Shown here piece by piece: positions 1 through 28,024 of a stretch of 47,920 nt of DNA. The stretch is taken from the UHGV virus genome UHGV-0243102; one strand, 5' to 3'. This DNA is from a virus. A program made the translations under genes and the position numbers. Numbering within the stretch: position 1 is the stretch's first letter; each line of letters opens with the position of its first letter. Below the pieces are notes generated by a model. It made no database searches and was not told where the DNA came from. It saw only the letters and a program-made list of their open reading frames with translations.

Positions 1-1
1 A

Positions 2-2026
2 AACCTGGGTTCAGGCGAAGGCTTTAAACTGATTGGACAATTTTCCAGTGTCGCATCGCTCGCAGCGACATCCGGTAGCCACGGAGACCGTGTGCTGGTC
101 AGGAGCTACCATGAAGGCGGCAGTGAGGGTGGCGGGCAGTTTGTCTATGACGAGGCAAGGGCCGCCGAAAATGACGGAGTAACGGTCTTTAATGGCTGGG
201 TGCGTCAGATAGTTAATAATACCCTGACGAATTACGACGCGGGAATTATCCCGTTTGATGGGTCAGACGCGACAAGCAGATTAAGTGCATTATTTAATAA
301 TGCACCTGATGGAACACATCTATATATAATTGGGCATCACCAGATATCTGGCCCTGTTACAATAAAGGGTAAAAATGCGCTAACATTTCATAGTGATTAC
401 GGTGCAATCTCTGGTTACGAACGCAGGGAGTCATGGGTTTGGGGCGCTGATTCTGATTTTGAATATGGTTCTGGAAACCTTGGCATTTTGTCTTTTTTTA
501 ACTGTCACAAAATTATTGTAGATGGGCTATTCATTGACGGCGCTCATTTGCAACGCCCCGACTCTAAAGAATGGGGTGATTGCATGGTCAGGTATGAGCA
601 TTGTACCTACATGACAATTCGGAACTGTAAAGGTGACGGTTTTGGCGGGTGGGGTATTTTTGGTCTTTACTCTGACTATGCAGATATCCACAACAATGTG
701 ATATCACGAGTGTCCCGCCAGAGCGGAATTAACGCATTTGCCTGCTCAAGCTATAGCAAAGTTTACAACAATACTTTAAATGACGTGGGTCTGTACGGTG
801 TCGAATTTGAAACATTTGATTCTAAAGCCGACTCAGTTACCTATGGAAATCAGGCTTACAATAACGAGATTCGGGGGGCAAAATTTGGGCTTACTGTGGT
901 AGGGAACCATAACGATGCCCTTATTTACAGTAACAAATGCTATGGGTGCCAGACTGGTGTATTTGCCATTAAATATACCGGAAAAAATATCGTCATCAGG
1001 GATAACTCAAGCCTGGATTGCATGCGCGGCGTGCAGGTCAATGCATCAAAGAATGTCCTTACGCTCAGAAATACCCTGACGGTTAACGAGGTTCCCGCGT
1101 TTATAATCGATGACCAGTACAATGCGGTGCTTGATATTACTGCGGACAGAATGGCGTTTTACAGCATCAACTCCGTTCGCGCCGGTTATCAGATTCAGAT
1201 ACGCGGCGTAACGTATACCGTAGCGTCGTCAGTACAGGACCCGACGAGAACCGATTACCAGGCACAGTCTGGCGGTCTGTACCTGAATACGCTGACTGCT
1301 GCCCTGGCAGCTGATGTGGAGCATTGCGATAACGTTTATGTGTCAACAACCAGCCTCGGAATGACACCTTACGGCTTTGGCCTGAATGTCGAGCGCTCAT
1401 CGTCTACGCTAACAGACAGTTCGTCAAATAACCGGTTCATCGGCAATCTGGCGGCGGGTAAAGTGGCGGCGGGCTGCTTCACCAGTTCTGTTTATACGGA
1501 TGTTTCAGCCATCAAAGAGTGGTGGATTGATAATCAGACTTCACCATCAACGGATAACCCTTATACGTGCCGGTGGATGCGTTTTAATCAGGGAGCAAAT
1601 GCGGCCATTAATGTGCAGGGAGCGCGCCACGATAAACTGTCGAGCATATTTTCATCAGCAACTAACGGCTCCACCCTGAATATTTTCGGCAACCGTATTT
1701 TACAGTACGGGTCAAATCTGGCCGTTGCATCAGGCGGACAATTCCCGCCGCATTATTATATTTCTGAAAGCCCGTTTGCGATTGTCAGCATTAAAGTGGT
1801 GCTGACCAACTATTCCTCATCGGAGGATGTATACCTGCGGATAAACGGGACAGAGAACATGGTGAAGGTAGCCGATGCAAATACCTCTGAAACCGCAGTG
1901 GTCAGCTACACATCGAGGAAATTATTTTTCACCTTATCCACTGTGGGCCTGATGTATTTCAGGCTGGCTACCGCCAGCAATACCGCGAAGGTCAGTGGTT
2001 ACTCAATTGAAATCGAAATCATGTGA
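2..2026 (+). CDS. Tailspike / receptor-binding protein with a right-handed parallel beta-helix (pectate-lyase fold). The N-terminus is truncated by the window edge.
   Basis: The reading frame is open from position 2, and the first ATG at 92 is not the true start. Repetitive N/G/I/V-rich rungs (NNVISRVS.., NNTLNDVG.., NNEIRGAK.., GNHNDALIYSNKCYG..) are typical of beta-helix tailspikes. It is convergent with the second tailspike. Confidence 0.55.
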   Translation, partial: NLGSGEGFKLIGQFSSVASLAATSGSHGDRVLVRSYHEGGSEGGGQFVYDEARAAENDGVTVFNGWVRQIVNNTLTNYDAGIIPFDGSDATSRLSALFNNAPDGTHLYIIGHHQISGPVTIKGKNALTFHSDYGAISGYERRESWVWGADSDFEYGSGNLGILSFFNCHKIIVDGLFIDGAHLQRPDSKEWGDCMVRYEHCTYMTIRNCKGDGFGGWGIFGLYSDYADIHNNVISRVSRQSGINAFACSSYSKVYNNTLNDVGLYGVEFETFDSKADSVTYGNQAYNNEIRGAKFGLTVVGNHNDALIYSNKCYGCQTGVFAIKYTGKNIVIRDNSSLDCMRGVQVNASKNVLTLRNTLTVNEVPAFIIDDQYNAVLDITADRMAFYSINSVRAGYQIQIRGVTYTVASSVQDPTRTDYQAQSGGLYLNTLTAALAADVEHCDNVYVSTTSLGMTPYGFGLNVERSSSTLTDSSSNNRFIGNLAAGKVAAGCFTSSVYTDVSAIKEWWIDNQTSPSTDNPYTCRWMRFNQGANAAINVQGARHDKLSSIFSSATNGSTLNIFGNRILQYGSNLAVASGGQFPPHYYISESPFAIVSIKVVLTNYSSSEDVYLRINGTENMVKVADANTSETAVVSYTSRKLFFTLSTVGLMYFRLATASNTAKVSGYSIEIEIM

Positions 2027-2034
2027 GGTTACAG

Positions 2035-2301
2035 ATGGCATTTACCCTGGTTAAATCAGTTACCGTGCTGAAACAGTGCCCGTCACTGTGTAATGCGACC
2101 CTGGCGCCTGAACAGGAAGATATCACTATTACTGTCAGCGTCACCTCGCTGGAATCGTTATCGGGTACGTTCGGAACGGTCAACTATTCCATTACCCCGG
2201 AAGGCGGAACGGCTGGACACGGAATGTTTGACTTCACCTATTCAGGCACGGGCAATCCGATTGATGAAGCGGAAGCGGCATTAAAAGAATCACTTTCCTG
2301 A
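2035..2301 (+). CDS. Small beta-rich protein (88 aa) immediately downstream of tailspike 1. Paralog of 2333..2620.
   Basis: ATG at 2035 has a GAGG 7 nt upstream. The ORF-track GTG at 2023 overlaps the tailspike stop. It starts MAFTLVKSVTVL..ITITVSVTSLESLSGT, versus MAFKITKEVQVSL..LIMTVTSVSVYPDGSGT in the minus-strand copy. Confidence 0.5.
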   Translation: MAFTLVKSVTVLKQCPSLCNATLAPEQEDITITVSVTSLESLSGTFGTVNYSITPEGGTAGHGMFDFTYSGTGNPIDEAEAALKESLS

Positions 2302-2332: not shown

Positions 2333-2620
2333 TCACACCACAACTGCGCCGGAAAACTCAGCCAGCCCCATGATTTGCGCTTGCGCCTGGCTGAAAATAT
2401 CTCCATTCAGCCAGGTTATCGGGAATGAGCGCACATCGCCGTTAGATGCACCATTTACCGTGGTTTCCAGGTATGCTGTCCCCGATCCGTCCGGGTAAAC
2501 CGATACACTGGTAACAGTCATGATGAGCTCCGCGCTCTGGGCCTGAGAGCCAATCACAACGCCGTTTGATACCAGGCTCACCTGAACCTCTTTCGTGATT
2601 TTAAATGCCATAGTTTTCAC
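2333..2620 (-). CDS. Small beta-rich protein (95 aa) downstream of tailspike 2. Paralog of 2035..2301.
   Basis: Its start lies 2 nt after the tailspike stop (2622). It shares the MAF N-terminus with the + strand copy. Confidence 0.5.
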   Translation of the reverse strand: MKTMAFKITKEVQVSLVSNGVVIGSQAQSAELIMTVTSVSVYPDGSGTAYLETTVNGASNGDVRSFPITWLNGDIFSQAQAQIMGLAEFSGAVVV

Positions 2621-2621
2621 C

Positions 2622-5069
2622 TTATGAATACGGGACTTGTTTAACCGGGGTAGCTGTACTTACCGTACCACTTATAAAGTTCGTACCAGCTTTCTTTATC
2701 TCTGCGGCACTTCCGGATGCTGGCAGCGGCGCACTTATGGCGGTAGCGCCGATGACATCGCAGCTATCCAGATCAACGGTAGTACCGGCATAGCAGAATA
2801 ATGCCGTACCCGCAGCGCACTGGATAAACGAATCCGCGAACTTGAGGCGAGCGCTGTTATTGGTGTATACGGCCCTCCCGTTTCCGGTGTTATTTGCCGT
2901 AAATCCGGAGAAAATGTTTTTAAGACCGCCATCAACATAAACCAGGTCGTCTGACGTTGCGCCGTTAACGGTAACGTCGCGAAATTTGCCGTAGTTGGCG
3001 TTAATGTAAACTGCCCTGCCTGTGCTTCCCGTATAGCGCACAGTGTCATCTTTAACTGAAAACCAGAAGTTGATGACGTTAGGCGTAACGTGATGGTTGT
3101 CTTTCCAGGTTCTGTCCGTCTGTGTATTGCTCGGGATGGATACCGACTGGGCCTGAGAACTAAATAACTTGTTACTGTGGAATGACATTCGTGAGACAGG
3201 CATAGAGCCGCCTTCCTGGTAGGCAGTCCCTTTGGTAATAATCCGGTTATCGTGGATGTTTACATCCGTTGACACGAAGCCCTGATACATACCGGCAGAC
3301 AACGTTATTCTGTTGATAATGACGTTATCATGTATTTTGCAGTCTGCCGCAAATGTACAATATATTCCTACACCATTATTATCCCGTATCATATTGTCTG
3401 CGCAGACATAATCGGTAACATTACGCAGGGTGACGCCGGAACCATCAGCTGTTGGTTTAGTCGTATCAGAATTAAAAAATCCGTTACGTCGACAAATATT
3501 CCCCTTAATAACCCCCGTAATCGGGACTGGCGAAGACCCTGTGTAGTTAATATCAATACCGTCCGCAGCGTTTTCCCGGCAGGTGTTATCGGAAATGTTC
3601 ACGCCATCATAATCCGGGTGTGGCCCATACTGCATACCGGATGTGCCATTCCTGAGGCACCAGTTAGTCGTGAAGGTTAAATCCCCGACACCGTAACACC
3701 AGAACCCGTTTCCGCCGTTATCAATCAGTGAAAGCCCGCGAACGGTCAGCCCCCGGATACCTCCGCTATCAATACCATTACCGTAGCGCCCGGTAATCCC
3801 CGTGCTAGAGCTATTTACATAAGTCCCTTTGCTGCCGTTATTTGCAATCAGGCAATTCAACACACTGACGTTAGTTACGTTGTAAATAGATAACCCAACC
3901 GATTTCGAACGGTCAGGATTAGAAATCGTTACCCCTTCAAATTTAAAGTTATCGCCACCTGCATCTACAGACACAGCCTCATATTTATTTTCAATTCTCC
4001 CTGAGCCTTTAATGGCTACATCACTTTCTGTAACCAGAAATAATGAGTAATCAGAACGCCGATTACTTTCAGACCACGTGAAATCACCGACAGGATTATG
4101 CTTAATAACGCCATCAATGATGAGCGTTACTCCCTGCGACGGAAGATGGGTATCAAACAGTTCATAATCACCAGGGGCCCACGCCGTTCTCGTTGGGTGC
4201 ACGGCGGCCGCAGCAAGCATCAGCCGAAAAGCTTCATCGTGGGTTATATCACCCCGGCTTGAGCCGAACATCTCAGGAGTAACAAAAGGCAGGCCGCCGA
4301 TGAGATTTGTGCCGTCGCTTGAACCCAGGTTTGAGCGAAGAGTCGCATCGGTGACATCCAGCCACTTTCCTTTACCCCGTCCGCCAGCCGTATCCGGTGT
4401 GCTACCTGGTAAAACGATCTTCGGCATTGCCCCATCCCAGCGCCAGTATTCATCCGTGGATTCCCACAGAAGAACCTCAAAGCGTTGAGTGAGTAGCGAC
4501 CCTTTTTCAAACGAGCCGATTGCCGGAACATACCCCCATAAGCCAGTTCCCGCAGGATCCTGCAGTTTTGGCTGCCCGGCACCATCAAAGCCAAGCCCCT
4601 TCCATGCCCGCTCCCCTGCTGAAGGCAAAACATTTACCGAGGCTTCAGGGACTCGTAACGTACGCTGGAGTATGTCCAGATTTGCTTCAAACGGGTAAGT
4701 TGGCCGGAAGTGAATAGCAGACTTACCGATGACTACGGGATCATCAGCCTCAACCTGCCAGCAGTCACCATTAATCGAAAAAACCAGCGTACCGTTGACC
4801 GCGTCCCGGGGTCCGTTAAAATCAGTCGCCCTGACCCAGAACGAACGGCGCGCTACCCAGATACCGTTTTCGACGGGGTTATCCTGCCCTAAAAGCAGAA
4901 CACGCATCCCTTCCGTGGTAGTGATCGTCCGCTCATCCGTTGGCGTTTTGGACGTAATAGTCTGCTCGCCGAAACGGGTGATTTCATAATCAGCTGAAAT
5001 ATAGACCGGTGGCTTTACAGCAACACTCGTGGTCAGTCCATAAAGGCGGTCTTGAGGAGTCGCGGGCAT
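2622..5069 (-). CDS. Tailspike protein (815 aa), beta-helix / pectin-lyase fold.
   Basis: It is the last large gene of the late operon. Beta-helix rungs include NPDRSKSVGLSIYNVTNVSVLNCLIANNGSKGTYVNSS, GNGIDSGGIRGLTVRGLSLIDNGGNGFWCYG and IHDNVIINRITL. The N-terminal ~120 aa probably form a particle-binding adaptor. Confidence 0.65.
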   Translation of the reverse strand: MPATPQDRLYGLTTSVAVKPPVYISADYEITRFGEQTITSKTPTDERTITTTEGMRVLLLGQDNPVENGIWVARRSFWVRATDFNGPRDAVNGTLVFSINGDCWQVEADDPVVIGKSAIHFRPTYPFEANLDILQRTLRVPEASVNVLPSAGERAWKGLGFDGAGQPKLQDPAGTGLWGYVPAIGSFEKGSLLTQRFEVLLWESTDEYWRWDGAMPKIVLPGSTPDTAGGRGKGKWLDVTDATLRSNLGSSDGTNLIGGLPFVTPEMFGSSRGDITHDEAFRLMLAAAAVHPTRTAWAPGDYELFDTHLPSQGVTLIIDGVIKHNPVGDFTWSESNRRSDYSLFLVTESDVAIKGSGRIENKYEAVSVDAGGDNFKFEGVTISNPDRSKSVGLSIYNVTNVSVLNCLIANNGSKGTYVNSSSTGITGRYGNGIDSGGIRGLTVRGLSLIDNGGNGFWCYGVGDLTFTTNWCLRNGTSGMQYGPHPDYDGVNISDNTCRENAADGIDINYTGSSPVPITGVIKGNICRRNGFFNSDTTKPTADGSGVTLRNVTDYVCADNMIRDNNGVGIYCTFAADCKIHDNVIINRITLSAGMYQGFVSTDVNIHDNRIITKGTAYQEGGSMPVSRMSFHSNKLFSSQAQSVSIPSNTQTDRTWKDNHHVTPNVINFWFSVKDDTVRYTGSTGRAVYINANYGKFRDVTVNGATSDDLVYVDGGLKNIFSGFTANNTGNGRAVYTNNSARLKFADSFIQCAAGTALFCYAGTTVDLDSCDVIGATAISAPLPASGSAAEIKKAGTNFISGTVSTATPVKQVPYS

Positions 5070-5163
5070 TTACTTTTCTCCGGACGTGAATAATCCCCGC
5101 AGGGCAAGGCCTGCGGTATGTGCAACGAAAGCCCGGTGCTTGCACGGGCTGGATTTTAGAGAT

Positions 5164-5196
5164 AAAAAAACCCGCATTCGCGGGCTTGTTTGTTTA
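5164..5196. terminator. Bidirectional rho-independent terminator (CCCGC-ATTC-GCGGG, with an A-run on one side and a T-run on the other).
   Basis: The sequence aaaaaaaCCCGCattcGCGGGcttgtttgttt has a GC stem flanked by poly-A/poly-T, so it terminates on both strands. Confidence 0.6.
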
Positions 5197-5219
5197 TGAA
5201 TCTTGAACTAACTTTTCAT

Positions 5220-5237
5220 GGCTATCAGCTGATAGCC
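5220..5237. promoter_or_regulatory. Perfect 18-bp palindrome GGCTATCAGCTGATAGCC, 24 bp upstream of the small secreted-peptide ORF.
   Basis: An exact 9+9 inverted repeat with a TTGAAC -35-like hexamer just upstream (5211-5216). It is a candidate operator for a dimeric regulator. Confidence 0.4.
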
Positions 5238-5260
5238 ACACTACACACAAGGTATTAAAC

Positions 5261-5413
5261 ATGAAAAAAGCATTTGCAGTGCTGTTTGTTCTGCTTTCTC
5301 TGGGATCGGTAACACAAGCCTACGCTGGCAATTGCCAGAGTCCGGATGATCGCGCCTCTGATGGTTCGCGTTGTGGTGGTCGTTCTGCTGATTCCCGGCC
5401 TGGTGGTCAGTAA
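5261..5413 (+). CDS. Small secreted peptide (50 aa): a Sec signal peptide (MKKAFAVLFVLLSLGSVTQAYA) plus a 28-aa Gly/Ser/Asp/Arg-rich mature part with 2 Cys.
   Basis: It is not in the ORF track because it is under 60 aa. There is a clear n-h-c signal peptide with an AYA-G cleavage site. Its own terminator hairpin (GGCTGC-GAAA-GCGGCC + TATTTA) lies at 5417-5440. It sits in an AT-rich moron island. Confidence 0.45.
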   Translation: MKKAFAVLFVLLSLGSVTQAYAGNCQSPDDRASDGSRCGGRSADSRPGGQ

Positions 5414-5494
5414 TAATTAAGGCTGCGAAAGCGGCCTATTTAATGAGATGCATTCTGAGTGCAGAAGAAGATGAACCCACCTAAATGAGCTATG

Positions 5495-5800
5495 TTATCT
5501 CTGTTTAAAAAACGAAGTTATTCTCTTCCACGCTTGGTGTGGATTCTCACTGGCAACTACATAAGCAGGGATGCAGAGAACACAGCCTACAATGAACAAA
5601 ATACCAGCCGCCATAGTGCTGTTTTGCTGATAGTAGACGAACGAAGAAAGAAAAATTGTCAGCGGCCATAAAAATGTAAACAGCCATTTAACTGAGAACT
5701 CAAACTTACGCCTTGCTCTGTCGTGCTTCCCCATAAAGCTCAGGAACGCCCATACAACAAGGCCAAAAATAATGTATGAAATATAATCTATATCTGACAT
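5495..5800 (-). CDS. Small integral membrane protein (101 aa, ~3 TM), probable moron.
   Basis: It is markedly AT-rich compared with the flanking virion genes. It has three hydrophobic segments and is inserted between the internal-protein genes and the tailspike. Confidence 0.5.
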   Translation of the reverse strand: MSDIDYISYIIFGLVVWAFLSFMGKHDRARRKFEFSVKWLFTFLWPLTIFLSSFVYYQQNSTMAAGILFIVGCVLCIPAYVVASENPHQAWKRITSFFKQR

Positions 5801-5803
5801 TAG

Positions 5804-8278
5804 TTACCTCGGTACTGTGTCCTGTGGGCGCCACCAGTATGTTTGGTTAAACTCTTTGCGGGAACGCTGTTCCATTTTATGAAGATAGCCAGGGGAAAAA
5901 TACTCCTGCAACTGGTTAAAAATCATATGATCAAGAGCCGCTTTTGCATACCACAGATTTGCCCCCGGAATAAGGCCTTTACCCAGTTTAACCAGATCCC
6001 CTCCTGTCTGCTCTGGTTTCCCTTCTACGGCATTTAGTGGGATACCTTGGGCCAGTTTAACTACATCATCAACTAGCCCCGCAACCGGCCCTAGCATTGA
6101 TGCAAGCGCGCCACCACCATAGCGGGTGTGATCAGAGAGAAGGAAATCTCCATATAATCCGAGTCCTCCACCTTTAAGCAACGCCCCCAACCAGAATTTT
6201 CCTGCATCCTTTCCGATCATTTCACGAGGATTTCGGCCAGACGCCATGTCGTTTAATTGCTGAGAAAGCGCACCAAGTAACGTGGTGCTGGCAATAAATG
6301 CTGATACATAAGCTGCACGCCCACCGGCTGAAGGCATTCCCATAGCTCTGGACCAATGACGCATAACTACAGATATTGGAAAGGATTTGAACAAAAATAC
6401 ACTTCGGGTCAATTCACCTTTCCACGTCCCACGCTGAAGCCCACCACCAGTGACCATCTGTTCACGAGCCCCGGGGGTAATCACCGCCATATCAACTTCT
6501 TCGGCAACAGCGCCAAGCAAACGCCGCATAGCCTCAAACTTGACTCGCTCGGGTGGGCCAATGTGAGAAACGGCTGCATCTGGAATGCGCATAATGCTCT
6601 CAGGCGTAAGCATTGTATTATTCCCCTTGCCCCAATCCTCCTGATCGGCCAGTTTCCAGACGGCAAAGTCTTGCTCTGTCACGCCCTTGTTTTTTAAAAT
6701 TCGAAAATCATTATCGTCCAAGCTGCGGAGGTCTGGCGTTCGACTAATGACATCTCCTAGGCTTCCCATCATCGTAACGCCATATGCCCGTTTATGGGCA
6801 TCTGACCACGCTGTCAAACCACTGGCTCGCATAACAGCAGTCGCAGCCCAGCGAGCCTTCGACGGCCCCATGTTATCCATCGCCCAACGATTGACACTGC
6901 CAAGAAGTGACTCCATTGCTAGCCCCGCTCGACGTGCACGTGCTAGCTCTGTACGATTCGTCGGGTCCATCGCCTCCAGCTGGTTACGGAGTAGCTGGCT
7001 CATTGGCAGATTAGTGACCTTTGCCGACAGATACATCGTGCCGAGATCAGAGAAGGAAGCTAGCAGGGCGGAGCCAAGACGGCTGGCCACCAGCCAGTTA
7101 CGGATATTGTCGGACCATCTGGCGATATGCGGATTCGCTATCGGTTGCGTCTTGCCCGAAATGAAGTTGTAAAGATTTTCGGTGCTGTTAGCCAGGCGCT
7201 TAACCCGGCCGGCGCGTCGCGGGTTCGCGATAGCTGTTTCCGCCCTTACTTCGTCGAGAATAGAACGAAATACGTGATCCGGGTTCGGCCCGTAAGTTTC
7301 CACCAGCGCAATATCTTTGCTGATGCTTTCCAGATGATGCACCATAATTTCCCACAACGAACGGTCGCCATACTGACGCTGGTATTCAAGGTACGCCTCA
7401 CCATCTCTGAAATGGATCTGCCGGGAAGCATTTCCCCGGTTGGCTCTCGCCCCGGAAATACGCAAACCTGTCTCGCTGAGTTTATTTAAACCACCGGTAG
7501 CGATAGTCTCGTATGCCTCACCCAGAAACGCCGTCAGCTCCGCATCGGACATCAGCTGCCCGTCGCTTTTGGTGTAATACTTTCGGTCAAGTTTCCCAAT
7601 GATATCGCTGACCCACTTATCCTTAGAAACCTTGCCAACTTTTTCCATTGAATGGTGCTGAGGCATGCCCCAGTCATCCAGATGCCCAATGTCGCCACCC
7701 GCATCGTTAAACCGGCGGCGGAGCAATTCAGTAACATCCTTCCAGGCTTTTGCACCTGCCCGGGCTTTAGCATTCCCCGTACTTTTCCCCCGAATTTCAT
7801 AAACCAGATCACGAACGCCTTTTTCATCTTCGAACAGGCCGAAAAATCGAGGGTCAACAGCTTCAAAAGCTTCCTGCAGCTGGCTGAGCGCGTAATCTCG
7901 CGTAGCCTTCCCGCGGGATTCAACAGACAGGAAATTTGCTTTGCCATCAGCGTGAAAAGCTATCGTGCGATTCAGTGCCTCCAGCTTTCCGTCTTTCCCT
8001 TTGTAATTATTAATAAATGAATCAAGGCGCTGGCGGGCAGTGATAGTTAAGGCAACGCGACGTTTCTTTAACGCCGCCTCTTGCTTTAACTCATCGGCGG
8101 CAAGTTGCCCGGCCCTGCGCAGACGTTCGGCTTCGGATAACATCCGCCACGACGCAGGGTCGTTACGCGCGAGCGATCGCATGTTTCTGTAGATACGGTC
8201 TTCAATATTCTGAATTTCACGAGCGCTCAGAGTGCGCTGCGCTGCCTTTTGTACTGCCTGAATGCATTCCTGACGCAT
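5804..8278 (-). CDS. Internal virion / ejection protein (824 aa).
   Basis: A large late-operon protein positioned like T7 gp15/gp16-type core proteins. Confidence 0.45.
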   Translation of the reverse strand: MRQECIQAVQKAAQRTLSAREIQNIEDRIYRNMRSLARNDPASWRMLSEAERLRRAGQLAADELKQEAALKKRRVALTITARQRLDSFINNYKGKDGKLEALNRTIAFHADGKANFLSVESRGKATRDYALSQLQEAFEAVDPRFFGLFEDEKGVRDLVYEIRGKSTGNAKARAGAKAWKDVTELLRRRFNDAGGDIGHLDDWGMPQHHSMEKVGKVSKDKWVSDIIGKLDRKYYTKSDGQLMSDAELTAFLGEAYETIATGGLNKLSETGLRISGARANRGNASRQIHFRDGEAYLEYQRQYGDRSLWEIMVHHLESISKDIALVETYGPNPDHVFRSILDEVRAETAIANPRRAGRVKRLANSTENLYNFISGKTQPIANPHIARWSDNIRNWLVASRLGSALLASFSDLGTMYLSAKVTNLPMSQLLRNQLEAMDPTNRTELARARRAGLAMESLLGSVNRWAMDNMGPSKARWAATAVMRASGLTAWSDAHKRAYGVTMMGSLGDVISRTPDLRSLDDNDFRILKNKGVTEQDFAVWKLADQEDWGKGNNTMLTPESIMRIPDAAVSHIGPPERVKFEAMRRLLGAVAEEVDMAVITPGAREQMVTGGGLQRGTWKGELTRSVFLFKSFPISVVMRHWSRAMGMPSAGGRAAYVSAFIASTTLLGALSQQLNDMASGRNPREMIGKDAGKFWLGALLKGGGLGLYGDFLLSDHTRYGGGALASMLGPVAGLVDDVVKLAQGIPLNAVEGKPEQTGGDLVKLGKGLIPGANLWYAKAALDHMIFNQLQEYFSPGYLHKMEQRSRKEFNQTYWWRPQDTVPR

Positions 8279-27202: not shown

Positions 27203-28024
27203 TCAGCGCGTTATTTGTTTGAGTTGTGCCTCTGCCCATGCCTCCTCTATATCGAATTTAGTGATCAGCACGTCGAAGAACGGCTTAACCGACTTCTTCC
27301 AGGTATCCAGGGTGATGGCGTCAGTTATCTGGCAAATGGCACTGTGCACAGCAGTTGAGAGGATCCGCTCATAACCGCGCCCACCACAGCGTTTACAGTT
27401 ACCCATGACAGGCGCGCCCTGTTTCTCCGTCTCATCCTGATTCACTACCTTTCCCCTTCCGTGGCAGTCGTTACAGGAAGCACTGACGGTCCCTTTTCCC
27501 TGGCACTTTTGGCAGAGCACCCGAACCTGCTCCCTGACAGACTTTGCCTCCTCCCAGTATGATGGATAGATCCCCTTTGTAACTTTGACCCACTTTGGAG
27601 GTTTGCCATCTGGATAAGTTACTTTGTTAGTGAACACCTCTGCATCGATGAATCCAGACCCATGGCAGCAGTCACATGTTTTTTTACTGGAAGCGCTGCG
27701 GGAGTAATCTTCAAAGGCGAACTCTGCGAGTATCCGGATAACCCGGGGTTTTACGTTTGGTGTGAGTTTGCGCAGCGCAGCTACTTTATCGCACCGGGTT
27801 AATGCGTATTCGGCCAGCAACGCGATCGCCCTTTCCCTATCATTGTTGCTGATACCCATCTTTCCGAGGAAGGCGCTATACCCCATTGCAGCGCGCTCCT
27901 GCGTCATACCCATTGCCGCCATAATATCGGTACCGGTCAGTGAATCAGAGGCGGTAGCACGCGGAGAATCGCTAATCAGCGTGGATTTTGCGAAGTGGTA
28001 TTTCACTGTGTTTTCAAGGTTCAT
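27203..28024 (-). CDS. Putative late-gene regulator (Q-type antiterminator-like) with four DnaJ-type CxxCxGxG zinc-finger repeats.
   Basis: It lies between the nin-like genes and the lysis cassette. The repeats are CDCCHGSG, CQKCQGKG, CNDCHGRG and CKRCGGRG. Confidence 0.45.
   Translation of the reverse strand: MNLENTVKYHFAKSTLISDSPRATASDSLTGTDIMAAMGMTQERAAMGYSAFLGKMGISNNDRERAIALLAEYALTRCDKVAALRKLTPNVKPRVIRILAEFAFEDYSRSASSKKTCDCCHGSGFIDAEVFTNKVTYPDGKPPKWVKVTKGIYPSYWEEAKSVREQVRVLCQKCQGKGTVSASCNDCHGRGKVVNQDETEKQGAPVMGNCKRCGGRGYERILSTAVHSAICQITDAITLDTWKKSVKPFFDVLITKFDIEEAWAEAQLKQITR

What the first reader, a model, noticed from the sequence alone, without database searches (positions are those of the whole stretch)
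5090..5800. AT-rich moron island in the virion operon: 3-TM membrane protein plus a convergent 50-aa secreted Cys peptide with a perfect 18-bp palindrome
An AT-rich insert sits between the internal-core genes and the tailspike gene. It encodes a 101-aa 3-TM protein on the minus strand. On the plus strand is an unannotated 50-aa ORF with a textbook Sec signal peptide and a 28-aa mature part (GNCQSPDDRASDGSRCGGRSADSRPGGQ, 2 Cys, Gly/Ser/Asp/Arg-rich). The peptide ORF has its own promoter-like region containing the exact palindrome GGCTATCAGCTGATAGCC, a GNRA-loop terminator, and a bidirectional terminator (5164-5196). Together these isolate it from late transcription. It behaves like an independently regulated lysogen-expressed module. 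Possible roles include superinfection exclusion, receptor masking, a signalling peptide or a bacteriocin-like peptide.
Basis: seen in the sequence. Interest (0 to 1): 0.65.

Follow-up and report, generated by a model that had tools for sequence, protein, structure and literature searches.

The report
Small secreted-peptide moron in a prophage
Between the DNA-ejection genes and the tailspike gene of a Klebsiella-type prophage sits a tiny self-contained gene for an exported 28-residue peptide of a widespread but unstudied family. The striking palindrome in front of it is most likely just an mRNA hairpin, so this is an ordinary kind of phage accessory gene whose function is unknown.

Summary
The sequence features are real. 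The window is a Uetakevirus (epsilon15/SPN1S)-like prophage.

**The 50-aa ORF (5261-5413, +).** It is a genuine gene (dN/dS about 0.1) and is not unannotated: it matches PHROG 14503, which NCBI names "transmembrane anchored protein". Its signal peptide varies, but the mature part is almost invariant (C-x4-D-x-A-x-DGSRCG-x-RSADSRPGG). A profile of it finds 587 cluster representatives. Related genes occur in Rhizobiales, cyanobacteria and other groups. The domain has no Pfam, NCBIfam, PADLOC or PDB match.

**A portable cassette.** The unit is a weak promoter, a 5' stem-loop, a CUACACA motif, a Shine-Dalgarno site, the ORF and a GC hairpin. In other prophages it sits in other classical moron slots: after Rz, after Q, next to CI.

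**The palindrome.** It is 20 bp long (5219-5238). Its centre is polymorphic in near-identical relatives. Distant relatives have unrelated hairpins at the same place, some with G·U pairs. It is therefore an RNA stem-loop rather than a conserved operator.

**The 101-aa 3-TM gene.** It is a separate, Klebsiella-restricted accessory gene. It starts 3 nt after the stop of the 824-aa virion gene and can occur without the peptide gene.

The peptide's function remains unknown. My best guess is a periplasmic peptide, made in the lysogen, that acts on the cell envelope.

The parts
2622..5069 (-). Tailspike gene (815 aa). Context: the downstream end of the late operon, reached only by reading through the peptide cassette.
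   Evidence: Pfam Tail_spike_N and Beta_helix; PHROG tail families. The body of this gene varies between otherwise identical relatives.
5168..5187 (.). Bidirectional intrinsic terminator hairpin. T7 run at 5161-5167 for the minus strand; CTTGTTTGTTT for the plus strand.
   Evidence: Terminator scan; RNAfold gives -12.5 and -12.8 kcal/mol; invariant in 10 close relatives.
5186..5214 (+). Inferred weak promoter of the peptide gene: -35 TTGTTT (5186-5191), 17-nt spacer, -10 TAACTT (5209-5214). The predicted start, near 5221, is the first base of the stem-loop.
   Evidence: Inference. The consensus scan did not call it. Allelic variants read TAACTT, TAATTT and TAGTTT, which keeps TAnnTT. The other cassette type has TACAAT 6 nt before its hairpin.
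5219..5238 (+). 20-bp perfect palindrome, read as the 5'-terminal mRNA stem-loop: 8 bp with an AGCU loop, -11.7 kcal/mol.
   Evidence: The loop is polymorphic in relatives. Hairpins of different sequence sit at the same position in 17 of 18 enteric loci, mean z -2.1, some with G·U pairs. It folds as an isolated element.
5241..5247 (+). Conserved single-stranded CTACACA motif between the stem-loop and the Shine-Dalgarno site (AAGGT, 5249-5253).
   Evidence: Present in nearly all cassette variants whatever the hairpin type. Role unknown.
5261..5413 (+). 50-aa precursor gene. Signal peptide codons 5261-5326 (MKK + hydrophobic core + AYA|G); mature 28-aa peptide 5327-5410 with Cys25 and Cys38; stop 5411-5413.
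   Evidence: PHROG 14503 E 2e-26; 51 homologue clusters; invariant mature motif; dN/dS 0.10; the exact protein is listed in about 1905 index blocks; 307 IMG/VR contigs.
5420..5437 (+). 3' GC hairpin (7 bp, GAAA loop) ending the peptide transcript; weak U-tract.
   Evidence: Relatives all have a GC hairpin right after the stop, with GAAA or UUCG loops or other stems. The window's C-to-T change keeps a G·U pair on the plus strand only: -13.4 versus -7.5 kcal/mol.
5495..5800 (-). 101-aa membrane protein with three hydrophobic segments. A separate AT-rich accessory gene coupled to the late operon: the ATG lies 3 nt after the stop of the 824-aa gene, with SD GAGG.
   Evidence: Only Klebsiella homologues, 63-91% identical. 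No phage-database, Pfam, NCBIfam or PADLOC family. It always directly follows the 824/825-aa gene, with or without the peptide gene.
5804..8278 (-). 824-aa virion (internal/ejection) protein. Context: the last conserved gene before the accessory slot.
   Evidence: PHROG 684 'virion structural protein', E 0; 75% nt identity to SPN1S/SPC32H Uetakeviruses.
27203..28024 (-). Q-like antiterminator gene. Context: it explains how late transcription can pass the terminators at 5420-5437 and 5168-5187 to reach the tailspike gene.
   Evidence: PHROG 127 E 3e-107. Read-through itself is inferred from established Q biology.

Best explanation
The 50-codon ORF is a self-contained, horizontally mobile phage 'moron' cassette.

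**Layout.** It consists of a weak promoter, an mRNA that begins with a stable stem-loop (the 'palindrome'), a single-stranded CUACACA motif, a Shine-Dalgarno site, the ORF and a GC hairpin terminator.

**Position.** It lies antisense inside the Q-dependent late operon of a Uetakevirus-like prophage, between the ejection-protein genes and the tailspike gene. This is the same kind of slot that holds sieA, orf59a and mnt in phage P22.

**Product.**
1. The precursor is exported by Sec.
2. Signal peptidase I cuts it after AYA.
3. This releases a 28-residue peptide of about 2.79 kDa into the periplasm.
4. Its two invariant cysteines probably form a 14-residue disulfide loop.

**Family.** The peptide belongs to an uncharacterised extracytoplasmic mini-domain family with the motif C-x4-D-x-A-x-DGSRCG-x-R-[SA][AS]-x-x-R-P-GG. 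The family is found from enteric prophages to Rhizobiales and cyanobacteria.

**Likely action.** It most likely acts alone in the periplasm, on a component of the cell envelope that is itself widely conserved. This would change the lysogen's envelope, as lysogenic conversion or exclusion.

**What the other features are.** The stem-loop stabilises or tunes the mRNA; it is not an operator. The neighbouring 101-aa membrane protein is an unrelated accessory gene expressed with the late operon.

**Status of each step.** Shown here: gene reality, family membership, cassette anatomy, mobility and hairpin conservation. Inferred: promoter position, export and cleavage, disulfide, expression in the lysogen, and the envelope target.
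For: **A real, selected gene**
- dN/dS is 0.10 overall and 0.08 for the mature part.
- The mature part is nearly invariant while the signal peptide varies.

**Family**
- PHROG 14503 E 2e-26; 51 clusters named 'transmembrane anchored protein'.
- The profile finds 587 representatives at E<=1e-3.
- Genome hits fall in Rhizobiales, cyanobacteria, Vibrio and Bacteriovorax.

**Extracytoplasmic location**
- 97 of 102 members with an N-terminal domain have a small-x-small site no more than 3 aa before the first Cys.
- Cyanobacterial members carry lipoboxes instead.
- The few fusions found are to PG_binding and SH3 domains.
- Both Cys are invariant.

**Cassette anatomy**
- The terminator upstream is confirmed.
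- A GC hairpin follows the stop codon in 17 of the 18 distinct relatives listed (not in L020).
- A 5' hairpin is present in 17 of 18 loci, with at least 7 different stem sequences.
- These hairpins include G·U pairs and one GCCAC/GUGGC to GCCGC/GCGGC double change.

**Mobility**
- The same cassette lies after Rz (L017), after Q (L020), beside a CI-like repressor (L025) and near a tape-measure gene (L024).
- It is absent from SPN1S, 66FD and L073-75.

**Late read-through and positional analogy**
- A Q-like antiterminator is present.
- P22 carries lysogen-expressed genes antisense between gene 16 and gene 9.
Against: - There are no expression data.
- No promoter reaches the consensus threshold.
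- The 3' U-tract is weak.
- No signal-peptide predictor was available; cleavage is judged from the AXA rule only.
- The AlphaFold model of the mature part has low confidence: pLDDT 67, mostly coil.
- No partner, target or phenotype is known, and no neighbour is conserved outside enteric prophages.
- The peptide ORF does not differ in GC content from the phage.
- An operator role for the palindrome is not strictly excluded, because regulators and operators can co-vary between phages.
Confidence: 0.6

Rival explanations
1. The palindrome is the operator of a dedicated repressor, and the peptide gene plus the 101-aa membrane gene form one independently regulated, lysogen-expressed module (exclusion, receptor masking, signalling or bacteriocin).
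For: - The palindrome is perfect, 20 bp long, and overlaps the inferred transcription start.
- The pattern search, allowing up to 3 mismatches, found only this site, against 0.02 expected by chance.
- The two genes are adjacent and converge on a shared hairpin.
- P22 has operators in the equivalent region.
Against: - The centre varies (AGCT, AGCA, AGTT, ATCT) among near-identical relatives, and only a minority are perfect palindromes.
- Relatives carry unrelated hairpins with G·U pairs, which make sense only in RNA.
- No candidate regulator gene lies in the cassette.
- The 101-aa gene is translationally coupled to the late operon and occurs without the peptide gene.
- No immunity or receptor partner is conserved.
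Confidence: 0.1
2. The N-terminal helix is not cleaved. The product is a membrane-anchored small protein, as its database name says, with a short periplasmic Cys-loop tail. It would modulate an inner-membrane protein (in the way MgrB acts on PhoQ) or block DNA entry at the inner membrane (Sie-like).
For: - NCBI and phage annotations call it 'transmembrane anchored protein'.
- Its architecture (about 20 hydrophobic residues, then a tail of about 28 residues with two Cys) resembles small membrane regulators. This comparison rests on my own knowledge of MgrB.
- Some family members carry the same domain tethered by a downstream TM helix.
Against: - The small-x-small site just before the domain is conserved in 97 of 102 members.
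- The hydrophobic segment is the least conserved part.
- Other members replace it with a lipobox or place the domain at the C-terminus of larger secreted proteins.

The conserved functional unit is therefore the soluble domain, not the helix.
Confidence: 0.15
3. The cassette is a hitch-hiking bacterial small gene with no role in phage biology. It would be carried neutrally or selfishly in the variable slots of prophages.
For: - The family is widespread in non-phage chromosomal contexts with no conserved neighbours.
- Related phages do without it.
Against: - Strong purifying selection acts within prophages.
- 307 IMG/VR contigs carry a relative, and the exact protein is listed in about 1905 index blocks.
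- Its own expression signals have been retained across different prophage types.
Confidence: 0.1
4. It is a type I toxin-like small hydrophobic peptide, whose structured 5' UTR and convergent transcription provide RNA-level control.
For: Small size, an N-terminal hydrophobic helix, a structured 5' end, and antisense transcription from the late operon.
Against: - The conserved part is the hydrophilic C-terminal domain.
- Lipoprotein and multi-domain versions exist.
- No antisense sRNA signals or Rfam family were found.
- PADLOC gave no hit.
Confidence: 0.03

Closest known systems
PHROG 14503 / PHROG 3117, NCBI 'transmembrane anchored protein' (e.g. TL-2011b gp43, BUCT711 WCS67836, ST512-KPC3phi13.3 QBQ71877)
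   Same: Direct sequence family: E 2e-26, 66-100% identity. It occupies the same slot in Uetakevirus-like (pro)phages and has the same 3' hairpin.
   Different: Nothing is known about these proteins beyond the name, which comes from a predicted N-terminal helix. In those phages the gene is the last of a longer plus-strand accessory region (BRO-N/Ant, YafO, DUF2335). Here it stands alone.
Phage P22 immI / sieA accessory region between ejection gene 16 and tailspike gene 9
   Same: It has the same position in a podovirus late operon. Small genes lie antisense to the late transcript with their own promoters and terminators. Late transcription must read through them to reach the tailspike gene.
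   Different: There is no sequence similarity to SieA, Mnt, Arc or Ant. No regulator or operator was identified here. P22 SieA is an inner-membrane protein, not a cleaved periplasmic peptide.
Lambdoid 'morons' (bor, lom, HK97 gp15; Juhala/Hendrix definition, from my own knowledge)
   Same: An autonomous small transcription unit flanked by a promoter and a terminator. It is present in some phages and absent between the same genes in relatives. It is found in several classical moron slots and encodes an envelope-targeted product.
   Different: The peptide ORF has no deviant GC content. Expression from the prophage is not shown.
Small phage-encoded periplasmic or lipoprotein exclusion factors (T4 Spackle, T5 Llp, phi80/N15 Cor; from my own knowledge)
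   Same: Signal-peptide-bearing small proteins that act in the envelope of the infected or lysogenic cell. In this family a soluble version and lipoprotein versions coexist.
   Different: There is no sequence similarity. At 28 mature residues this peptide is far smaller. It is also widespread in non-phage chromosomes. No target is known.
5'-terminal stem-loop mRNA stabilisers (ompA-type; Emory, Bouvet & Belasco 1992, from my own knowledge)
   Same: A stable hairpin lies at or within a few nt of the inferred 5' end, followed by a single-stranded leader and the SD site. The stem is conserved as structure, not as sequence.
   Different: The transcription start has not been mapped, and a stabilising effect has not been measured.

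Membership tests
PHROG 14503 / 'transmembrane anchored protein' family | Significant full-length sequence similarity to the family profile | tested here: met
   E 2.2e-26 over residues 1-49 of 50; 51 clusters with E down to 5e-25.
Moron (autonomous accessory transcription unit in a phage genome) | Present between two genes that are adjacent in related phages | tested here: met
   Absent from SPN1S, 66FD and L073-75, which share the 824-aa gene. Present in other slots in other prophages.
Moron | Own terminator | tested here: met
   A GC hairpin follows the stop codon in 17 of the 18 distinct relatives listed (not in L020), and the U-tract here is weak. A canonical terminator also lies directly upstream.
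Moron | Own promoter | tested here: inconclusive
   No hit in the consensus scan. A conserved TAnnTT/TACAAT element lies 5-6 nt before the hairpin in every cassette type.
Moron | Base composition different from the surrounding phage genes | tested here: not met
   Peptide ORF GC 0.523 against 0.518 for the window. The criterion is met only by the separate 101-aa gene, at 0.402.
Moron | Expressed from the repressed prophage | not testable with these tools
   Needs RNA-seq or 5'-RACE in a lysogen.
Sec / signal peptidase I substrate | Positively charged n-region, hydrophobic h-region, small residues at -3 and -1 | tested here: met
   MKK, then AFAVLFVLLSLGSV, then TQAYA|G. 97 of 102 family members keep small-x-small just before the domain. 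No dedicated predictor was available.
Bacterial lipoprotein (SPase II substrate) | Lipobox [LVI][ASTVI][GAS]C | tested here: not met
   The window has A-G-N-C, with Asn at -1. Cyanobacterial relatives do carry lipobox-like T-S-C or T-A-C.
Repressor operator (palindromic protein-binding site) | Half-sites and symmetry conserved among phages that share the element; usually repeated in the genome | tested here: not met
   The centre is polymorphic in relatives more than 96% identical. Unrelated stems and G·U pairs occur elsewhere. The window has no second copy at 3 or fewer mismatches.
Intrinsic terminator (the 'GNRA-loop terminator', 5420-5437) | GC-rich stem-loop followed by a U-tract | tested here: inconclusive
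   The stem is met (7 bp, GAAA loop). The U-tract AUUUAAU is below the scan's threshold. Relatives have better tracts, for example CCUUUUUUA in L015, L017 and L018.
P22 SieA-type superinfection exclusion | Sequence similarity to SieA, or a demonstrated block of DNA entry | tested here: not met
   Neither ORF gives a PHROG, Pfam or PADLOC hit to Sie proteins. Only the genomic position is analogous. Function is not testable here.
Colicin TolB box (DGSGW / DGTGW) | Pentapeptide with the essential Trp, plus a second anchoring Trp (PMC2821528) | tested here: not met
   The family has DGSRC. No Trp occurs anywhere in the mature peptide.
Excalibur / DxDxDG calcium-binding domain | Match to Pfam PF05901; Asp at positions 1, 3 and 5 of the loop | tested here: not met
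   No Pfam hit for the window protein or for 144 family members. Position 3 is an invariant Ala.

The most novel reading that the evidence does not exclude
The 'DGSRCG' peptide is the founding phage example of a new extracytoplasmic mini-domain spanning several phyla. Despite having no partner gene, it would bind a universally conserved envelope component, such as peptidoglycan or a cell-wall enzyme like a lytic transglycosylase. Temperate phages would then spread it as a portable cassette to remodel or protect the lysogen's envelope, for example by blunting the wall-degrading ejection proteins of superinfecting phages.
Probability: 0.15. Interest if true: 0.65.

Novelty: new member of a known kind. 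Interest (0 to 1): 0.35.

Why it matters
If the peptide has an envelope target, this 28-residue domain would be one of the smallest conserved bacterial extracytoplasmic modules. It has no Pfam, NCBIfam or PDB representative, although the profile finds 587 cluster representatives and 307 viral contigs carry a relative. It would also be a compact, easily synthesised handle on lysogenic conversion or phage exclusion in Klebsiella, Enterobacter and E. coli prophages. The cassette is in addition a clean natural example of a portable expression unit, and its 5' stem-loop is conserved as structure only. As it stands, it is a well-delimited but ordinary moron of unknown function. The eye-catching palindrome does not indicate a new regulatory system.

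Tried and rejected
**Searches that gave nothing**
- Megablast of 5070-5810 found no phage match. In complete E. coli genomes it gave only one partial hit, which led to the family name.
- For the peptide, Pfam, NCBIfam and PADLOC scans and a PDB profile search gave no family. For the 101-aa protein, Pfam, NCBIfam and PADLOC gave only sub-threshold hits or none.
- Pfam scans of 144 distant family members (plus NCBIfam on 10) showed no model covering the domain. A few carry PG_binding or SH3 domains.
- The AlphaFold2 model of the precursor had pLDDT 67 with the mature part as coil, so no fold search was run.
- Rfam gave only sub-threshold terminator-like hits on the minus strand.
- Neighbour analysis of 58 genome loci and a Pfam scan of 150 neighbours found no conserved partner outside enteric prophages.
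- Literature searches for the family name and for the peptide motifs found no paper. The ZX5 Uetakevirus paper covers only the BRO-N anti-repressor in this region.

**Ideas considered and dropped**
- A TolB-box resemblance (ASDGS versus colicin E9 DGSGW) was rejected because the essential Trp residues are absent.
- An Excalibur or EF-hand-like calcium loop was rejected: no HMM hit, and the third ligand position is an invariant Ala.
- RNAalifold on a simple MAFFT alignment of the 5' UTRs gave only a weak consensus, because stem and loop lengths differ. Per-sequence folding with shuffles was used instead.
- An inverted repeat at 1-36 / 4297-4332 first looked like a Mu G-segment-type invertible tailspike switch. 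It is the conserved NLGSxxGxxLIG motif of two convergent tailspike genes, and the left one simply runs off the window edge.
Full report
**What the window is.** The window is a temperate podovirus prophage of the epsilon15/SPN1S (Uetakevirus) type.
- The 824-aa and 602-aa proteins next to the finding are PHROG 684 and PHROG 1145 virion proteins.
- This part of the window is about 75% identical in DNA to Salmonella phages SPN1S, SPC32H and 66FD.
- Klebsiella phage BUCT711 has the same gene order.
- Further along the minus strand lie an SLT-domain internal protein, tail and head genes, an endolysin and a Q-like antiterminator (27203-28024). An integrase (minus strand) and RecT (plus strand) lie at the far end.
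- The late operon therefore runs on the minus strand, from Q through the virion genes to the tailspike gene (2622-5069). The finding sits inside it.

**Check of the observation.** All the sequence features exist at or near the stated coordinates.
- The 50-aa plus-strand ORF is at 5261-5413 and the 101-aa minus-strand ORF at 5495-5800.
- The palindrome is at 5220-5237, and is actually a 20-bp perfect palindrome at 5219-5238.
- A GC hairpin at 5168-5187 has T-runs on both sides.
- An AGGCTGC-GAAA-GCGGCCT hairpin lies at 5420-5437.
- The 101-aa product has three hydrophobic segments.
- Low GC applies to the 101-aa gene (0.402, lowest 2% of the window) and to the spacers. It does not apply to the peptide ORF (0.523 against 0.518 for the window).
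- By length alone the palindrome is not extraordinary: 19% of random 48-kb sequences contain one of 18 bp or more.
- The consensus scan finds no sigma-70 promoter in 4900-6000. It does not call the GAAA hairpin a terminator, because the U-tract is poor.

**The 50-aa ORF is a real, already named, widely distributed gene.**
- It matches PHROG 14503 ('membrane associated protein', moron category) at E 2e-26 and PHROG 3117 at 4e-24.
- The protein database holds 51 homologous clusters from Klebsiella, Enterobacter, Escherichia, Cronobacter, Kosakonia and others. Most that carry a name are called 'transmembrane anchored protein'.
- Phage records TL-2011b, BUCT711 and ST512-KPC3phi13.3 annotate it the same way.
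- The exact 50-aa sequence is listed in about 1905 index blocks. Those inspected are genomes of 4.6-6.1 Mb.
- 307 IMG/VR viral contigs encode a relative.
- Pairwise dN/dS across 16 enteric alleles is 0.10, and 0.08 for the mature part.
- The N-terminal 22 residues vary but keep the n/h/c layout and an AXA site. The mature part is nearly invariant: C25, A32, G35, S36, C38, G39, R41, S42, S45-G49.

**A broader, undescribed mini-domain.**
- A profile of the family finds 587 cluster representatives at E<=1e-3 among 1.84 billion.
- Genome hits include Mesorhizobium, Rhizobium, Bradyrhizobium, Devosia, Methylobacterium, Dolichospermum/Anabaena/Nostoc, Vibrio and Bacteriovorax.
- The shared motif is C-x4-D-[RT]-A-[SA]-DGSRCG-x-R-[SA][AS]-x-x-R-P-GG, usually at the very C-terminus.
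- Several architectures occur:
  - signal peptide plus domain, the commonest;
  - lipobox plus domain, in cyanobacteria;
  - tandem copies;
  - signal peptide, domain, 'RNPDTDW', a TM helix and a cytoplasmic domain;
  - a four-Cys variant at the end of larger proteins.
- Among 144 such proteins the only recurring Pfam partners are peptidoglycan-binding and bacterial SH3 domains, two proteins each.
- No Pfam, NCBIfam, PADLOC or PDB entry covers the domain.
- The AlphaFold model has low confidence.
- Outside enteric prophages no neighbour is conserved. The domain therefore appears to work without a dedicated partner.
- I found no paper that mentions it.

**The cassette and its mobility.** In all enteric loci the gene has the same compact layout.
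1. A -10-like element comes first: TACAAT/TACACT in the common type, TAACTT/TAATTT/TAGTTT in the window's type.
2. A hairpin follows 5-6 nt later.
3. Then comes a single-stranded CUACACA motif.
4. Then the Shine-Dalgarno site and the ORF.
5. A GC-rich hairpin follows within a few nt of the stop codon.

In Uetakevirus-like prophages the cassette always lies antisense between the ejection genes and the tailspike gene, alone or at the end of a variable plus-strand region (BRO-N/Ant, YafO, DUF2335). The ZX5 paper shows that this region's BRO-N protein acts as an anti-repressor (PMC9782041). In other prophage types the same cassette lies after the Rz spanin (L017), after a Q-like antiterminator (L020), beside a CI-like repressor (L025) or near a tape-measure gene (L024). 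It is missing from SPN1S, 66FD and L073-75. This presence/absence pattern, together with its own expression signals, is what defines a moron. The positional analogue is the P22 region between gene 16 and gene 9, where sieA, orf59a and mnt lie antisense to the late operon with their own promoters.

**What the palindrome is.**
- Among ten loci more than 96% identical to the window, four have the AGCT centre and six have AGCA.
- In IMG/VR the same stem occurs with AGCA, AGCT, AGTT and ATCT loops.
- Symmetry is therefore kept only in the 7-8-bp arms, as expected for a stem-loop.
- Other alleles carry unrelated stems at the same position: GCCAC/GUGGC, GCCGC/GCGGC (a double, compensatory difference), GCCGUC/GAUGGC, GCCAU/GUGGC (both with G·U pairs), GCCACA/UGUGGC and UUGCC/GGCAA.
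- 17 of 18 loci have such a hairpin, with a mean z of -2.1 against shuffles.
- G·U pairs argue for RNA rather than a DNA dyad.
- The pattern search found no second copy in the window even with 3 mismatches.
- The element folds on its own and leaves the leader open.
- With the inferred -10 at 5209-5214, transcription would start at the first base of the stem. That is the arrangement of 5'-terminal stabilising stem-loops such as ompA's (established knowledge, not tested here).
- The window's C-to-T change in the 3' hairpin also keeps pairing on the plus strand only.

**The 101-aa gene is a different matter.**
- Its ATG lies 3 nt after the stop of the 824-aa gene, behind GAGG.
- This junction is identical in every relative.
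- Its homologues are 63-91% identical and restricted to Klebsiella.
- dN/dS is 0.11-0.48.
- It has no family hit.
- In L073-75 it occurs without the peptide gene.
- The same slot in other Uetakeviruses holds other small envelope-directed proteins, though not always. SPN1S and 66FD have a 46-55-aa 2-TM protein. BUCT711 has a 98-aa 3-TM protein. CH468 has a 186-aa secreted protein, and ST512phi13.3 a soluble one.
- By anatomy it is a variable accessory gene of the late operon, not part of a lysogen-expressed pair.
- Whether it also has an internal promoter cannot be told from sequence.

**How it most likely works.**
- In the lysogen, the weak promoter would make a short, hairpin-capped, terminator-ended mRNA. 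This is inferred.
- The precursor would be exported and cleaved after Ala22. This is inferred from the AXA rule and from family architecture.
- The 28-residue peptide would be oxidised to a Cys25-Cys38 loop. This is inferred from the invariance of both Cys.
- It would then act in the periplasm on a conserved envelope component. This is inferred from its phylum-wide conservation without a partner gene and from the few cell-wall-binding fusions.
- During lytic growth, Q-modified polymerase reading the minus strand would cross the cassette to reach the tailspike gene. It would pass the hairpin at 5437-5420 and the strong minus-strand terminator at 5187-5161. This is inferred from the presence of Q.
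- What the peptide does for the phage is open. My ranking is envelope conversion or exclusion first, a membrane-anchored regulator next, and a neutral passenger last.

**Verdict.** The regulatory reading of the palindrome and the pairing of the two genes are not supported. The feature is a new member of a known kind of element. Its one notable aspect is a very small, very conserved and entirely uncharacterised extracytoplasmic domain.

Noticed in passing
window 1-2026 (+), 2023-2301 (+), 2333-2620 (-), 2622-5069 (-): A second tailspike gene (beta-helix, PHROG 23909) runs off the left edge of the window and converges on the annotated tailspike. Each is followed by a small ORF of the same PHROG 7836 (92 and 95 aa). 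The ORF list's start at 92 is an edge artefact, because the frame is open from base 2. The 36-nt inverted repeat 1-36 / 4297-4332 is the shared NLGSxxGxxLIG motif, not an invertase site. In L165-L167 the same C-terminal module is part of a full-length tailspike.
   Followed up: yes
window 5241-5247; the same position in L001-L004, L015-L027, L085-L164: A CUACACA motif between the 5' hairpin and the Shine-Dalgarno site is conserved in nearly all cassette variants, whatever the hairpin sequence. It stays single-stranded in folds. Its role is unknown; it could be a translation enhancer, an RNA-binding-protein site or a processing site.
   Followed up: partly
window 5097-5116 and 5131-5149: Two further GC hairpins lie in the 90-nt leader between the minus-strand terminator and the tailspike start codon. 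They are nearly invariant in ten relatives. The few polymorphisms keep pairing on one strand or the other, inconsistently, so the strand on which they act is unclear.
   Followed up: partly
L001 6187-6200, L002 6179-6190, L003 6189-6200, L016, L019, L027 (just after the 3' hairpin): A 12-bp palindrome, GTGACATGTCAC or GTGACGTGTCAC, directly follows the peptide gene's 3' hairpin in several relatives. It is absent from the window.
   Followed up: no
P0084, P0090, P0091, P0110, P0111, P0121, P0127 and others: One subfamily places the same mini-domain after a signal peptide or lipobox. A conserved RNPDTDW, one TM helix and a cytoplasmic domain of about 150 aa with a GGN-x-YDAA motif follow. This may be a transmembrane signalling or anchoring version of the domain. 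A four-Cys variant (CxCPY...CGGRSAYSRPGG..PxCY) ends larger proteins that contain SH3 or PG-binding domains.
   Followed up: partly
L010 434-3809: In one otherwise identical prophage the tailspike gene is cut down to 302 aa by an insertion sequence (rve/DDE_Tnp_IS240). Two aminoglycoside phosphotransferase (APH) genes sit next to it. This is a resistance island inserted into the prophage.
   Followed up: no
window 5325-5338: A 14-bp perfect palindrome, CTGGCAATTGCCAG, spans the codons around the predicted signal-peptide cleavage site. Three palindromes with arms of 7 or more occur in the window against 3.4 expected, so this one is at chance level.
   Followed up: yes
slot after the 824-aa gene in L001, L003, L004, L082, L083: The position directly after the last ejection-protein gene is a variable accessory slot across Uetakeviruses. 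It is usually filled by small membrane or secreted proteins of unrelated families.
   Followed up: partly
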